A stretch of DNA of 24,832 nt from a virus (Duplodnaviria > Heunggongvirae > Uroviricota > Caudoviricetes). Where the stretch lies: IMG/VR virus record IMGVR_UViG_2724679239_000003. One strand, given 5' to 3'. Positions 1-3,000 of the stretch are shown piece by piece; position 1 is the stretch's first letter, and every line of letters starts with the position of its first letter. The position numbers were made by a program.

Positions 1-3000
1 TCATTTGTTGATTTCAATTTTGTCCCATTCTCTCCCTCGGCTGTCCCTATACCGCGCCGCCATTGAATCTGATTTATGTCCGAGAAGACGTTGAGCAAAC
101 TTATCGCCAATCTGATTCCGGTATAGCCTCGCCGACAGGCTACGCAGTTCATGGAATGTTGGCGGGTCTCCATCAAATGAGAGTCCAGATGCATTTCTCG
201 CCTTTGTAAAATACTTCGATACTGTTTTCGGGGAAAGCGGTTCGTGATGCTTTGATGCGATTATAGTTTCACTGCTGCTGGCCTCCCTGCATTTCTGTAG
301 CGTATCAGCCAATGAGATATTGAGCGCGTCAATCGTTAGCGTCAGCGGAATGGCGAGCTTGGTCCCTGTTTTACCCTGCTCAATGTGAAGATGGTTGTCG
401 TTTATGTCTGACCATTTCATTCTGCATAAATCGCCCACTCTCTGCCCTGTAACGACAGCCAAATCCATTGCCAGCCTCAGCCAGATTGGGAGAGGTTCGG
501 CTGCATGGTAAATCGCGACATACTCATTAGTTGTCAGCCTTGAGCGCCTTACTTCTGACTTTGCTGCGCGGGTTGCTGTTACCGGATTCGTTGCCACATG
601 CCCCTCGGCTATTGCCTCACGAAAAATGTCAACAAGGGTTGACCTGATTAATTTTGCGGAAGCTGCTTTACCTTCTGCTACGTAGGTGTTTAGCATTGCA
701 GCCACCTCTTTCGTTGATATGTCAGTGAGCGGTTTGTCCGGCAATTTTCTTCGAATTGCCCTGATTTTGCTGGCGTAGTCGAGTAGAGTTTTCGGTCTGA
801 TACCCCTCTCGCTGAGGATTGTTTCATATCGGTCAAGCCACGCATGAAGAGTGATTTCGTCAGCGCCTTTAATTCTGTCTATCAGTGACTCACGCCTGTT
901 CTCGGATAGCAACTCAATATTGGCCTGAATAGCCTCTGAAACTGCTATCCTTCTGTCTCTGCCTAATCCGAACTCTTTACCCGTCCTTGGGTCCCTGTAG
1001 CAGTAATATCCATTGTTTCTTATATAAAGGTTAGGGGGTAAATCCCGGCGCTCATAACTTCGCCTTCTTCCCATTTTTGATCCTCTTCAAAAGGCTACCT
1101 GTTACTGGTCGATTTAGGTCAACCTTTACCGCTGATTCGTGGAACAGATACTCTCTTCCATCCTTAACCGGAGGAGGGAATATCCTGCATTCGCGCACCC
1201 ATCGACGAACTGTTTCAAGGCTTCTTGGGCGTCGCTGGCGAGCGTTCCACTCCTGAAGTGTCAAGTACATCGCAAAGTCTCCGCAATTACACGCAAGAAA
1301 AAGCCGCATTGATGCGGCGATGGTAGGTCTGGATATCTTGATAAATGAAAATGCCTCATCGAGTGTGAGGCTGTGGTTAGTCCTTGCGTAGCTCGCTGAT
1401 TCTTCTGTAAGTCTCTGGTGCTTTGTTTCCGTGTATCTTCATTTCAGACTTCAACAGAGCGACGAGGGAATCCCATTCGTTGAGGATGCCTTTGAATGCC
1501 GGAACGCGCTTTGCAAGCTTGTCGAATGAATCTCTGATTTCTGGAATCTGCTCAACAAGTGCAACGCATCGCCGGAAGTCTGCTGCGTCATGGGGAGCGC
1601 CGAAGTGATGACCATAGATATTCTTTTTCAGTCCACATGCGATTGAGGCAAGAGTTGCGCTACTGATGCCAACATCGCCAGTCGATTGCCATTTCAAAAC
1701 CTTCATAGCCAAATCTGACATTTCTTGTCTCCATAAAACAAAACCCGCCGTAGCGAGTTCAGATAAAAGAAAACCCGCACTCGGCGGGTTCGCATTTGTT
1801 CAAATTGCGCTTACTTCTTGGCGTTCTTCCCAGACATTTCCATGTATCGCGATTCGCTGACTTTAGGTGATGTTAACGACTGTTCGCGATAGCATGTTAA
1901 CTTTGTCGCGTTCTTCCTATGATTTTGCTGCAATGTTGAAAACAGATTTATCTAATCGCTTATAGTCTTAGACATTTCGAATTTTTCACCGATTGGCTTT
2001 AGCTCATCAATAGCCTTATAGATTTCGTCATTTGATGGTTTTTTACCAGAATTAGCATAGTTGTAAGTATAAAAAACATCTCCTCTGGTATCCTTGAACT
2101 TCATAACAGAAACCTTTTGAACTTTCCCACTGTTATCACTTATTTCGATAGACTTGATGTCTTGGTGGCTTGTGTGCAGCCTAGGTTCTTTTCCTTCTTC
2201 AAAAATGATTTGCTGATACATGATCTTATCCTTGTAATTCATCAAATAGTTAACAACAAAAAGTGATTTTGATTGTACCTGAAAATTCTTTTGCTTTCTG
2301 CTGCTGATTTAGTCATTGATATTCACCTTTATCGCGAACACCTTTACCGGTTTATCGCCAAAATGCGGATGTGTGATTGTCTTCACTTCATATCCGTCAT
2401 ACGGAACATCAATTCTGCGGCTGGAATCGTCGTGCTTCGGATATCCCTTCGTGATGATCAGACTGCCATACTCGTGGTTAACGAGGCGCTTTTTCCAGTA
2501 GTCATTAACAAGGCGATACTCTTCCGTTTTCTCTCCGCGAATCATGGCATCGAAGTATTCACTTTTAACAGCAAGTTGCAGGTTAGCCATCACTTAATCC
2601 CCCTTTGTTTGCGGATAAGCTCCAGATCTTGCTGGCAACTTGCACAAGTCCGACAACCCTGAACGGCCAGGCGTCTTCGCTCATCTATGGGATCGCCACA
2701 CTCACAACAATGAGTGGCAGATATAGCCTGGTGGTTCAGGCGGCGCATTTTTATTGCTGTGTTGCGCTGTAATTCTTCAATTTCTGATGCTGAATCAATG
2801 ATGTCTGCCATCTTCCATTAATCCCTGAATTGTTGGTTAATACGCTTGAGGGTGAATGCGAACAATAAAAAAGGAGCCTGTAGCTCCCTGATGATTTTGC
2901 TTTTCATGTTCATCGCTCCTTAAAGACGCCGTTTAACATGCCGATCGCCAGACTTAAATGAGTCGGTGTGAATCCCATCAGCGTTACCGTTTCGCGGTGC

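What the first reader, a model, noticed from the sequence alone, without database searches (positions are those of the whole stretch)
1377..2811. Int-proximal accessory cluster: unknown 114-aa and AT-rich 97-aa proteins, ASCH-like protein and TraR/DksA zinc finger
The lambda ea/b-region slot next to xis is filled with four small genes. The TraR-like zinc-finger protein probably binds host RNA polymerase, and the ASCH-like protein is coupled to it by an ATGA overlap. The 97-aa gene has distinctly lower GC and its own terminator, so it is a separately acquired moron. Such early-left clusters are enriched for host-takeover and anti-defence functions, and none of the three non-TraR proteins is assignable by eye.
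Basis: partly seen in the sequence, partly recalled or inferred. Interest (0 to 1): 0.45.

Follow-up and report, generated by a model that had tools for sequence, protein, structure and literature searches.

The report
Lambdoid prophage exo-xis accessory genes
This is an ordinary mosaic stretch of small early genes in a lambda-like prophage: one is the already characterised RNA-polymerase-binding protein Orf73, and the other three belong to catalogued phage families whose function is still unknown.

Summary

The TraR/ASCH overlap is TGATG, not ATGA, and it is a recombination joint. The block int-xis-ORF114-89aa-ASCH (1-2589) is 98.8-98.9% identical in prophages that carry Ea22-like genes upstream instead. 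So this is the variable end of the known exo-xis region, not a coupled system. Interest is low to moderate.

The parts
1303..1318 (-). t'I terminator hairpin between ORF114 and xis
   Evidence: Terminator scan. RNA fold -10.5 kcal/mol, z = -4.1. It corresponds positionally to the feature annotated t'-I in phage 434 record M60848.
1353..1371 (-). Second, weaker hairpin directly after the ORF114 stop codon
   Evidence: Terminator scan. Fold -9.1 kcal/mol, z = -4.0. Not annotated in 434.
1377..1721 (-). ORF114, 114 aa. Orthologue of ORF114 of phages 434 and HK022. Member of a large uncharacterised all-alpha family.
1741..1791 (-). Tandem, near-repeated terminator hairpins followed by T-runs. This is the tL4 region of lambdoid pL operons.
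   Evidence: Terminator scan. Composite fold -30.6 kcal/mol, z = -4.6. Matches the region annotated t-L4 in 434 and tL4 in HK022. Also present in lambda at L004 1584-1641.
1811..1948 (-). Decayed pseudogene of a prophage DNA polymerase III theta (HolE/Hot-like) gene. About 20 N-terminal codons with an in-frame TAG are joined to the last 27 codons.
   Evidence: The translation ends ...CYREQSLTSPKVSESRYMEMSGKNAKK*. Intact theta homologues end ...RYYREQSVQLPRASDPRYIEMAEQNSKK*. The N-terminal remnant is visible in the alignment with L025. DNA is 84-92% identical to the 3' ends of annotated theta genes in E. coli prophages.
1952..2221 (-). AT-rich gene, most likely 89 aa. Orthologue of Gifsy-1 STM2623.1n.
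2243..2311 (-). Upstream end of the mobile module, carrying a conserved -10-like hexamer (TACAAT at 2277-2272). Candidate promoter of the 89-aa gene.
   Evidence: The intergenic sequence is conserved with Gifsy-1 (TACAAT) and a Citrobacter prophage (TATAAT) in unrelated contexts. It did not pass the two-hexamer promoter scan.
2309..2590 (-). ASCH-like (PUA-like) protein, 93 aa from the ATG at 2590.
   Evidence: phrog_625 at E 6e-47. 605 clusters, named 'ASCH domain-containing protein' by NCBI. GxKxxExR motif at G19/K21/E24/R26, invariant in 22 homologues. Pfam ASCH only 14.9 bits against a cut-off of 21.2. Substitutions concentrate on codon position 3 of this frame.
2589..2590 (.). Mosaic recombination joint at the orf73 stop / ASCH start (TGATG).
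   Evidence: Homology to seven int-proximal blocks (97.7-98.9% identical; six of them cover 1-2589) ends at 2589. Homology to lambda and 434 orf73 begins at about 2600.
2590..2811 (-). orf73, 73 aa. TraR-family RNA polymerase secondary-channel binding protein, orthologue of lambda Orf73.
   Evidence: 69/73 identical to lambda Orf73; the differences are V49A, E61Q, S67R and S72I. Pfam zf-dskA_traR at 5e-9. Matches TraR chains 5w1s and 6n57. DxxDxA motif, CxxC-17-CxxC motif with two extra Cys, and ExxRL motif read from the sequence against PMC9239242 and PMC8614690.

Best explanation
The interval is the promoter-distal, variable end of the early-left (pL) operon of a lambda-like prophage. This is the 'exo-xis region'. 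It was assembled from at least three mosaic modules and is not a functional four-gene unit.

1. orf73 (2590-2811) ends the conserved lambda block orf60a-orf63-orf61-orf73. By orthology to lambda Orf73, its product inserts an N-terminal DxxDxA helix into the RNA polymerase secondary channel. It inhibits rRNA and ribosomal-protein promoters without ppGpp and so diverts host resources to the phage.

2. A separate int-proximal block (1-2589) travels with this integrase among prophages that have different recombination modules. It holds the ASCH-like gene, the 89-aa gene, ORF114, xis and int.

3. Within that block, the AT-rich 89-aa gene is an inserted cargo module (2311-1741). The module consists of a candidate promoter, the gene, a decayed theta pseudogene and the tL4 double hairpin.

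All four genes point away from pL. ORF114 lies behind strong terminators. They are therefore probably expressed as delayed-early genes from N-antiterminated pL transcripts; the window encodes an N-like protein.

Inferred, not shown: the ASCH-like protein binds or processes RNA or a modified nucleotide through its GxKxxExR pocket. ORF114 and the 89-aa protein are small host-interaction (accessory) proteins of unknown target.
For: Shown here:
- Gene reality and family matches.
- Orf73 orthology and hallmark motifs.
- Module boundaries at 2589/2590, about 2311 and about 1741.
- The same int-proximal block lies downstream of Ea22-like genes in L014-L016 and L018-L021, and of orf73 only in L017, which is 99.98% identical to the window.
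- A related prophage (L003) has ASCH joined to tL4 without the 89-aa module.
- The GC contrast is 35% against 45-49%.
- The theta remnant.
- The 89-aa gene lies next to theta genes in nin regions elsewhere.
- Terminators.
- An N-like gene at 7222-7557.

From the literature:
- Lambda Orf73 binds RNAP, inhibits rrnB P1 and r-protein promoters, slows host growth and raises phage yield about 4-fold. It is expressed from pL (PMC9239242).
- GxKxxExR lines the ASCH nucleotide-binding cavity (PMC6803910).
Against: - Nothing here shows expression, or that the window's Orf73 variant (four substitutions) retains activity.
- ASCH membership rests on a motif and a sub-threshold Pfam hit. hhalign against E. 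coli YqfB was negative, and more distant homologues also fail Pfam.
- dN/dS of the 89-aa gene against Gifsy-1 is high (0.66 in the divergent half, 0.88 overall). Constraint on it is weak, or it is under diversifying selection.
- The copy in E. coli Rb-50 is frameshifted.
- The functions given for three of the four proteins are generic inferences, not predictions from homology.
- TIGR02419 (TraR family) scores 55.6 bits, below its 59.7 cut-off.
Confidence: 0.8

Rival explanations
1. The four genes form one functional host-takeover or anti-defence cassette, with the ASCH-like protein translationally and functionally coupled to the TraR-like protein.
For: A stop/start overlap exists between orf73 and the ASCH-like gene. 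All four genes are co-oriented and close together. ASCH directly follows TraR in some E. coli prophages and in phages 21 and ev207.
Against: The overlap coincides with a recombination breakpoint. The identical ASCH-89aa-ORF114 block follows Ea22-like or DUF4752 genes in most contexts. Lambda orf73 has the same kind of overlap with the unrelated ea22. The ASCH-like gene also occurs alone in virulent Jerseyvirus and Klebsiella phages. ORF114 and the 89-aa gene each occur independently in other genome positions.
Confidence: 0.07
2. The 89-aa gene is a true moron. It is transcribed from its own promoter in the lysogen and benefits the host, for example by superinfection exclusion or phage defence. 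It is not a lytic-cycle early gene.
For: Low GC. Presence/absence polymorphism. About 70 bp of upstream intergenic sequence, with a -10-like TACAAT/TATAAT, is conserved across three unrelated contexts. Terminators lie downstream. In other prophages the gene sits in a nin-region cargo spot that also holds a TIR-domain gene. dN/dS is high in the N-terminal half.
Against: No acceptable -35 element is present and nothing passed the promoter scan. No PADLOC match. There is no expression data. The gene has the same orientation as pL, so read-through is sufficient to express it.
Confidence: 0.35
3. ORF114 is an enzyme or a specific inhibitor acting on a host defence or nucleic-acid pathway. It represents a new fold family with an active site built from the invariant Ser20 ... 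Pro-x-Asp-Pro-x-Asp-x-x-Arg-Cys motif.
For: The family is large and spans Proteobacteria and Actinobacteria phages and a giant virus. Polar residues are invariant across 46 sequences at 30-55% identity. The model is confident and has no PDB neighbour. Placements resemble morons, including an opposite-strand insertion inside a tail operon. One protein carries the domain fused to a CCA-adding/poly(A) polymerase + HD enzyme.
Against: The motif was not matched to any catalytic signature known to me. The conserved residues could be structural. The fusion may be a gene-calling read-through. No conserved neighbour was found. There are no experimental data or literature.
Confidence: 0.25
4. The three unassigned ORFs are decaying, functionless remnants in a cryptic prophage.
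For: A theta pseudogene lies inside the interval. Many chimeric or truncated ORF114 derivatives exist in databases. The Rb-50 copy of the 89-aa gene is frameshifted.
Against: All three ORFs are intact here and in an independent contig that is 99.98% identical. All have Shine-Dalgarno sequences. The families are conserved down to 30-50% identity with invariant residues. The ASCH-like gene shows third-position substitution bias. The surrounding Red, N, cI-like and int genes are intact.
Confidence: 0.08

Closest known systems
Bacteriophage lambda Orf73 (TraR/DksA family; F-plasmid TraR, PDB 5W1S/6N57)
   Same: Both are 73 aa and 69/73 residues are identical. Both lie immediately after orf61 in the pL operon. 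Both have the DxxDxA N-terminal motif, CxxC-17-CxxC with two extra cysteines, and ExxRL. Both overlap the next gene at the stop/start codons (PMC9239242, PMC8614690).
   Different: There are four substitutions (V49A, E61Q, S67R, S72I), three of them in the C-terminal helix region. The downstream gene is ASCH-like instead of ea22. Activity was not tested.
ORF114 of phages 434 (M60848, 1990) and HK022
   Same: 96.5% identical protein. Same position between the tL4 and t'I terminators next to xis.
   Different: 434 and HK022 carry ORF55 between tL4 and ORF114, and it is missing here. No function was ever assigned to ORF114.
ASCH domain proteins (human EOLA1 and TRIP4/ASC-1, Zymomonas ZmASCH, E. 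coli YqfB)
   Same: The GxKxxExR motif sits at the same residue numbers as in EOLA1 (G19, K21, E24, R26). The N-terminal 40 residues align to the start of the Pfam ASCH model. The size is about 93-100 aa.
   Different: The whole-domain score is below Pfam's threshold. There is no significant match to any PDB ASCH sequence or to YqfB. It has Glu, not Thr, at position 24, so it is not the YqfB-type amidohydrolase (from memory of the YqfB triad). The fold was not verified.
Gifsy-1 STM2623.1n / Gifsy-2 homologue (hypothetical protein)
   Same: Same gene, 80% amino-acid identity and 84% DNA identity across the whole 571-bp module. The 3' half is identical. The upstream region, theta remnant and double hairpin are shared.
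   Different: In Gifsy-1/2 the module lies in the nin region upstream of dinI, not next to xis. Gifsy-1 has a further 42-bp deletion in the theta remnant.
Morons of lambdoid phages (concept of Juhala, Hendrix et al. 2000; from memory)
   Same: An extra gene of deviant base composition lies between genes that are adjacent in relatives, and it is followed by a terminator.
   Different: An autonomous promoter is not demonstrated. The terminator is shared with the resident operon. The orientation equals that of the operon.
Prophage/plasmid theta homologues (E. coli HolE, phage P1 Hot; Pfam PF06440)
   Same: The remnant at 1811-1948 retains the N- and C-terminal coding sequence of such a gene.
   Different: It is internally deleted and interrupted by a stop codon, so it is non-functional here.

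Membership tests
TraR/DksA family (lambda Orf73 subgroup) | C4 zinc finger CxxC-17-CxxC; Pfam PF01258 above the gathering score | tested here: met
   C35xxC38 and C56xxC59, 17 residues apart, read from the translation. PF01258 scores 36.4 bits against a cut-off of 24.9.
TraR/DksA family (lambda Orf73 subgroup) | N-terminal DxxDxA motif that reaches the RNAP active-site region | tested here: met
   D3-I-I-D6-S-A8. The motif is defined in PMC9239242.
TraR/DksA family (lambda Orf73 subgroup) | Globular-domain ExxR(K/L) residues that contact the rim helices and beta'Si3 | tested here: met
   E44-R-R-R47-L48, identical to lambda Orf73.
TraR/DksA family (lambda Orf73 subgroup) | NCBIfam TIGR02419 (phage/plasmid TraR family) above its cut-off | tested here: not met
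   55.6 bits against a cut-off of 59.7, E 5.7e-15. This is a near miss. Lambda Orf73 itself differs at only 4 residues.
TraR/DksA family (lambda Orf73 subgroup) | Direct binding to RNAP and inhibition of rRNA promoters | not testable with these tools
   Shown for lambda Orf73 (PMC9239242). Inferred here from 95% identity.
ASCH domain (Pfam PF04266, PUA-like clan) | GxKxxExR motif in the alpha1-beta2 cavity | tested here: met
   G19, K21, E24 and R26 are invariant in 22 homologues. The motif is defined in PMC6803910.
ASCH domain (Pfam PF04266, PUA-like clan) | Whole-domain profile match above the gathering score | tested here: not met
   14.9 bits against 21.2, and only residues 6-45 align. Twelve of 22 homologues reach E < 0.1 and none is better than 0.043. 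Distant homologues give nothing, or DUF3850 at E 0.022.
ASCH domain (Pfam PF04266, PUA-like clan) | Similarity to solved ASCH proteins | tested here: inconclusive
   No ASCH chain was found by phmmer or hmmsearch against PDB. hhalign against YqfB aligned only the motif region, probability 0.1%. The alignment is shallow (Neff 1.5).
ASCH domain (Pfam PF04266, PUA-like clan) | Five-stranded beta-barrel-like core with helix alpha1 | not tested
   Both structure-prediction slots were used on the two unknown proteins.
Moron (autonomous cargo gene in a lambdoid genome) | Deviant base composition | tested here: met
   35% GC for the gene and 37.5% for the module, against 45-49% for the flanks.
Moron (autonomous cargo gene in a lambdoid genome) | Absent between the same neighbours in related phages | tested here: met
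   In L003 the ASCH stop codon lies 17 bp from tL4. The gene is found in 1 of 5426 complete E. coli genomes.
Moron (autonomous cargo gene in a lambdoid genome) | Terminator downstream | tested here: met
   A double hairpin at 1741-1791 moves with the module to Gifsy-1. The same hairpins exist as tL4 in phages without the gene.
Moron (autonomous cargo gene in a lambdoid genome) | Own promoter, with expression from the repressed prophage | tested here: inconclusive
   The scan found no promoter. A conserved -10-like TACAAT/TATAAT lies about 50 nt upstream of the ATG in three contexts, without a recognisable -35. Expression is not testable.
Known anti-phage defence proteins (PADLOC-DB) | Match to any defence-system model | tested here: not met
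   No hits at E <= 0.1 for any of the four proteins.

The most novel reading that the evidence does not exclude
ORF114 would represent a widespread family of small phage proteins, over 2500 clusters at 50% identity. It is found in phages of Proteobacteria and Actinobacteria and in one giant virus. Its all-alpha fold would be previously unseen, and the invariant Ser ... PxDPxDxxRC site would be a catalytic or target-binding centre acting on a host defence or nucleic-acid pathway. Separately, the 89-aa protein would be a lysogen-expressed moron linked to replisome (theta) biology or to exclusion of other phages.
Probability: 0.2. Interest if true: 0.55.

Novelty: new member of a known kind. Interest (0 to 1): 0.22.

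Why it matters
As it stands, the finding mainly re-identifies known material: a lambda Orf73 orthologue and three catalogued orphan families in the well-studied but poorly understood exo-xis region.

Its value is practical in three ways.
- It corrects the gene models: an 89-aa start, a theta pseudogene, and an antisense ORF that is annotated as a family in PHROGs.
- It shows that the TraR/ASCH overlap is a recombination joint and not a functional link.
- It flags ORF114 as a very large family with no Pfam model, no solved structure and a confident structural model. That makes it a reasonable target for a first functional or structural study.

Exo-xis genes influence the lysis-lysogeny decision and prophage induction in Shiga-toxin phages (PMC3824215, PMC8614690). 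Assigning functions to the variable members would therefore have some medical relevance.

Tried and rejected
3. Pfam, NCBIfam, PADLOC and PDB sequence searches, with single sequences and with profiles, gave nothing for ORF114 or the 89-aa protein.
4. A link between ORF114 and the dATP/dGTP pyrophosphohydrolase domain (PF04447), suggested by hits P0015, P0051 and P0063. The sequences show these are chimeras made by recombination inside ORF114, not homology.
5. A regulatory RNA in the 230-bp spacer at 1722-1951. Rfam found nothing there. The spacer is explained by a theta pseudogene plus terminators.
6. The 80-aa gene upstream of theta in E. coli prophages as a distant homologue of the 89-aa protein. 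hhalign probability was 0.7%. Rejected.
7. A conserved gene neighbour for ORF114 across diverse phages. None was found in eight contexts.
8. The search for related loci with the diverse ORF114 alignment failed for lack of a conserved stretch. The afdb50 library was unavailable.
9. Literature searches for ORF114, its accession numbers, STM2623 and phage ASCH function returned nothing relevant.
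Full report
**Context.** The window opens at the stop codon of a lambda-type integrase gene. On the minus strand it reads, from the right:
- a cI-like repressor, then N-like and Nun-like genes;
- cIII (with its thermoregulator), kil and gam;
- bet at 4222-5007, exo at 3545-4225, orf60a at 3366-3554 and orf63 at 3202-3393;
- an orf61-like gene at 2910-3191;
- the four genes of the finding;
- xis at 1052-1270 and int at 1-1074.

The interval is therefore the promoter-distal end of the pL operon of a lambdoid prophage. 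The literature calls this the exo-xis region: a conserved block orf60a-orf63-orf61-orf73-ea22 followed by a variable set of genes (PMC8614690). A metagenome-derived contig (L017) is 99.98% identical to window 1-6000. The 89-aa protein is 100% identical to a protein named from Escherichia albertii. The host of the window itself was not established.

**Checking the observation.** All four ORFs exist, are co-oriented and match PHROG families at E 1e-25 to 1e-52. Five corrections follow.
- The orf73 stop (TGA, 2592-2590) and the ASCH-like ATG (2590-2588) share one base, giving TGATG. Only the alternative GTG start at 2593 would give a four-base GTGA overlap. There is no ATGA.
- The '97-aa' ORF begins at a TTG. 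The first ATG (2242) has no Shine-Dalgarno sequence. The ATG at 2221 is preceded by AAGGA at a spacing of 7 nt, and all divergent homologues begin there. The product is most likely 89 aa.
- The GC dip is real: 35% for the gene, 30% for the 66-bp spacer upstream of it and 37.5% for the module. Its neighbours ORF114, ASCH and orf73 have 45-49%.
- Terminator-like hairpins lie at 1771-1791 and 1741-1760. They are near-repeats of each other and can also fold into one long hairpin (-30.6 kcal/mol, z = -4.6).
- A plus-strand ORF (2273-2662) hits phrog_20945. Substitutions against three homologues fall on codon position 3 of the minus-strand frame (44, 54 and 60, against 14-38 at positions 1 and 2), and the antisense frames carry stop codons in two of the three homologues. 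This ORF is an antisense shadow of the ASCH-like gene.

**The TraR-like protein is lambda Orf73.** Lambda's orf73 is not annotated in NC_001416, but it is present between ea22 and orf61. The window's protein differs from it at four of 73 positions: V49A, E61Q, S67R and S72I. It keeps these features:
- the DxxDxA motif (D3, D6, A8);
- the CxxC-17-CxxC zinc finger, plus the two extra cysteines peculiar to lambda Orf73;
- the ExxRL motif.

These features are described in PMC9239242 and PMC8614690. The protein passes Pfam PF01258 and matches the TraR chains of the RNAP complexes 5W1S and 6N57. It narrowly misses the TIGR02419 cut-off. Purified lambda Orf73 binds RNAP, inhibits rRNA and r-protein promoters, slows host growth and raises phage yield about four-fold. 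It is expressed from pL early in the lytic phase (PMC9239242).

**The overlap with the ASCH-like gene is a recombination joint.** The 89-aa protein was looked up in public assemblies. The block int-xis-ORF114-89aa-ASCH recurs at 97.7-98.9% identity in seven other contigs, six of which cover window 1-2589, and the identity stops at 2589 in all seven, one base before the ASCH start codon. Upstream of that point these prophages carry a 227-247-aa Ea22-like gene, together with Erf/Rad52-type or RecT-type recombination modules. Only L017 has the lambda Red genes and orf73. A close variant of the 89-aa gene (P0064) is preceded by ASCH after DUF4752 and DUF551 genes, or it lacks ASCH altogether. Lambda orf73 has the same kind of stop/start overlap with the unrelated ea22. 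Gene-boundary overlaps here mark where modules are exchanged. They do not indicate a TraR-ASCH partnership.

**The ASCH-like protein.** There are 605 clusters of homologues across Enterobacterales, and NCBI names them 'ASCH domain-containing protein'. The family also occurs in virulent Jerseyvirus and Klebsiella phages and in Ralstonia phages. The ASCH signature GxKxxExR is present at G19, K21, E24 and R26. It is invariant in 22 homologues and sits at the same residue numbers as in human EOLA1, where it lines the putative nucleotide-binding cavity.

Sequence tests at the whole-domain level fail:
- Pfam ASCH scores 14.9 bits against a cut-off of 21.2;
- a profile search finds no PDB ASCH chain;
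- hhalign against YqfB is negative;
- remote homologues do no better.

I call it ASCH-like and probably a PUA-like nucleotide- or RNA-binding protein.

**The AT-rich gene is part of a mobile module that contains a dead theta gene.** Only one of 5426 complete E. coli genomes (strain Rb-50) carries the gene. There it is frameshifted by expansion of an 8-nt repeat. The whole stretch 1740-2311 is 84% identical to Gifsy-1 and Gifsy-2, where it lies in the nin region upstream of dinI. The 3' half of the gene and the next 60 bp are identical between the window and Gifsy-1, which points to recent exchange.

The 140 bp between the gene and the hairpins is not regulatory RNA; Rfam finds nothing there. 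It is the wreck of a DNA-polymerase-III-theta homologue. About 20 N-terminal codons with an in-frame TAG are joined to the last 27 codons, which read ...CYREQSLTSPKVSESRYMEMSGKNAKK*. Intact copies end ...RYYREQSVQLPRASDPRYIEMAEQNSKK*. In Citrobacter-type prophages the 84-89-aa gene also sits in the nin region. It is followed there by a full-length or truncated theta gene, once with a TIR-domain gene next to it. Some E. coli prophages have theta next to tL4 and ORF114 without the 89-aa gene.

A related prophage (L003) joins the ASCH stop codon to tL4 with only 17 bp between them. So the module is an insertion. Its hairpins correspond to the tL4 terminator annotated in 434 and HK022, and they are also present in lambda.

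About 70 bp upstream of the gene, including a -10-like TACAAT (TATAAT in Citrobacter), is conserved in all three contexts. No -35 is recognisable and the promoter scan found nothing. 'Moron' is thus plausible on composition, polymorphism and terminator, but unproven on the promoter.

**ORF114.** The 114-aa protein is 96.5% identical to 'ORF114' of phage 434, deposited in 1990 and lying between terminators t-L4 and t'-I. It is also present in HK022, mEp043, mEp213 and Stx phages. ORF55, which precedes it in 434, is missing here. Its Shine-Dalgarno sequence (GGAG) sits directly after the T-run of the second hairpin. Expression from pL therefore needs antitermination, and an N-like gene is present.

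An exhaustive HMMER search found 2503 representatives at 50% identity with E <= 1e-3. tblastn found members in phages of Vibrio, Klebsiella, Gordonia and Arthrobacter, and BFVD adds a giant-virus member. Across 46 sequences at 30-55% identity the invariant residues are W11, S20, P43, D45, D48, R51, C52 and W83, giving the motif PxDPxDxxRC.

Genomic placement varies:
- next to xis/int in lambdoid and P22-like phages;
- after an exonuclease gene in a Klebsiella phage;
- near RusA and a Lar-like gene in one Vibrio phage;
- on the opposite strand inside the tail operon in another Vibrio phage.

This is the behaviour of a mobile accessory gene, and no partner gene emerges. Apparent fusions to a dATP/dGTP pyrophosphohydrolase domain, Erf, Kil or Ea22 are recombination chimeras. 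One fusion to a CCA-adding/poly(A) polymerase-HD protein may be a read-through. No paper mentions the protein's function.

**How it most likely works.**

Shown:
- the anatomy, the module boundaries and the orthology of Orf73.

Established by others for the lambda orthologue:
- binding in the RNAP secondary channel and inhibition of promoters for the translation machinery.

Inferred:
- All four genes are delayed-early genes expressed from N-modified pL transcripts that read through tL4.
- The ASCH-like protein binds RNA or a modified nucleotide.
- ORF114 and the 89-aa protein are dispensable host-interaction factors.
- The 89-aa gene may additionally have its own promoter.

I put 0.8 on this overall picture, 0.35 on lysogen expression of the 89-aa gene and 0.25 on ORF114 having a catalytic or specific inhibitory site. 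I put below 0.1 on a coupled four-gene system and below 0.1 on the ORFs being junk.

**Novelty and score.** The TraR-like gene is already known and characterised. ORF114, the ASCH-like gene and the 89-aa gene are all in PHROGs and in long-published phage sequences, and the exact arrangement is already in public assemblies. The interval is a new mosaic member of a known kind of region. The only element with real upside is the ORF114 family, which is large, has no Pfam model and has an unmatched predicted fold. Interest 0.22.

Noticed in passing
window 6881-7225 (-) and 7222-7557 (-): A 114-aa ORF matches 'Nun-like transcription termination factor' (phrog_5632, E 5e-71). It lies directly downstream of an N-like antiterminator gene (phrog_271) and overlaps it. 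A tandem N-like plus Nun-like pair in one prophage is unusual, because HK022 carries Nun in place of N (from memory).
   Followed up: no
window 2273-2662 (+): A 129-aa plus-strand ORF hits phrog_20945 (E 6e-48). It is an antisense shadow of the ASCH-like gene. Substitutions fall on its codon position 1, and homologues carry stop codons. That PHROG family is probably built from mis-annotated ORFs.
   Followed up: yes
window 1811-1948 (-): An internally deleted pseudogene of a DNA polymerase III theta (HolE / P1 Hot-like) gene, interrupted by a stop codon, lies between the 89-aa gene and the tL4 hairpins. The 89-aa gene family is repeatedly followed by theta genes in the nin regions of other prophages.
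   Followed up: yes
L005 (E. coli Rb-50) 3731-4061, homologous to window 2130-2170: The Rb-50 copy of the 89-aa gene carries an expanded 8-nt repeat (acatcaag)n that shifts the frame. P0082 has an in-frame version of the same expansion. This may be a slippage hotspot or a phase-variation site.
   Followed up: partly
L033 3041-3865 and L034 824-1648: In two metagenomic prophage contigs a 274-aa TIR_2-domain gene sits immediately after the pair formed by the 89-aa gene and a truncated theta gene. The spot appears to be a cargo or defence hotspot.
   Followed up: no
window 2910-3191 (-) versus lambda L004 3013-3325: Lambda orf61 (61 aa) and the following unannotated 60-aa ORF together correspond to one continuous 71/93-aa gene here and in phage 434. 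Lambda's orf61 looks like a frameshifted version of that gene.
   Followed up: partly
L004 2693-2914 (lambda NC_001416 30392-30613): orf73, an experimentally characterised lambda gene, is not annotated in the RefSeq lambda record held in the phage collection.
   Followed up: yes
L043 (Vibrio phage K75) 2372-2830: An ORF114-family gene is inserted on the opposite strand between the tape-measure gene and other genes of the tail operon. This is a typical moron placement.
   Followed up: no
window 1741-1791 (-): The two tL4-region hairpins are near-direct repeats of about 30 nt. They can fold either as two separate terminators or as one long hairpin (-30.6 kcal/mol).
   Followed up: partly
window 17698-18007 (+), 21292-21490 (+), 5616-5674 (-): Four tRNA genes (Met, Arg, Thr, Gly) lie in a row. 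There is an Rfam IS009 RNA match, and the lambda cIII thermoregulator element is present.
   Followed up: no
P0015, P0017, P0029, P0037, P0049, P0051, P0063 (database proteins): Many database proteins are chimeras of ORF114 with Erf, Ea22, Kil, DUF2528 or DUF550 sequences. ORF114 appears to be a frequent deletion or recombination endpoint in decaying prophages.
   Followed up: partly
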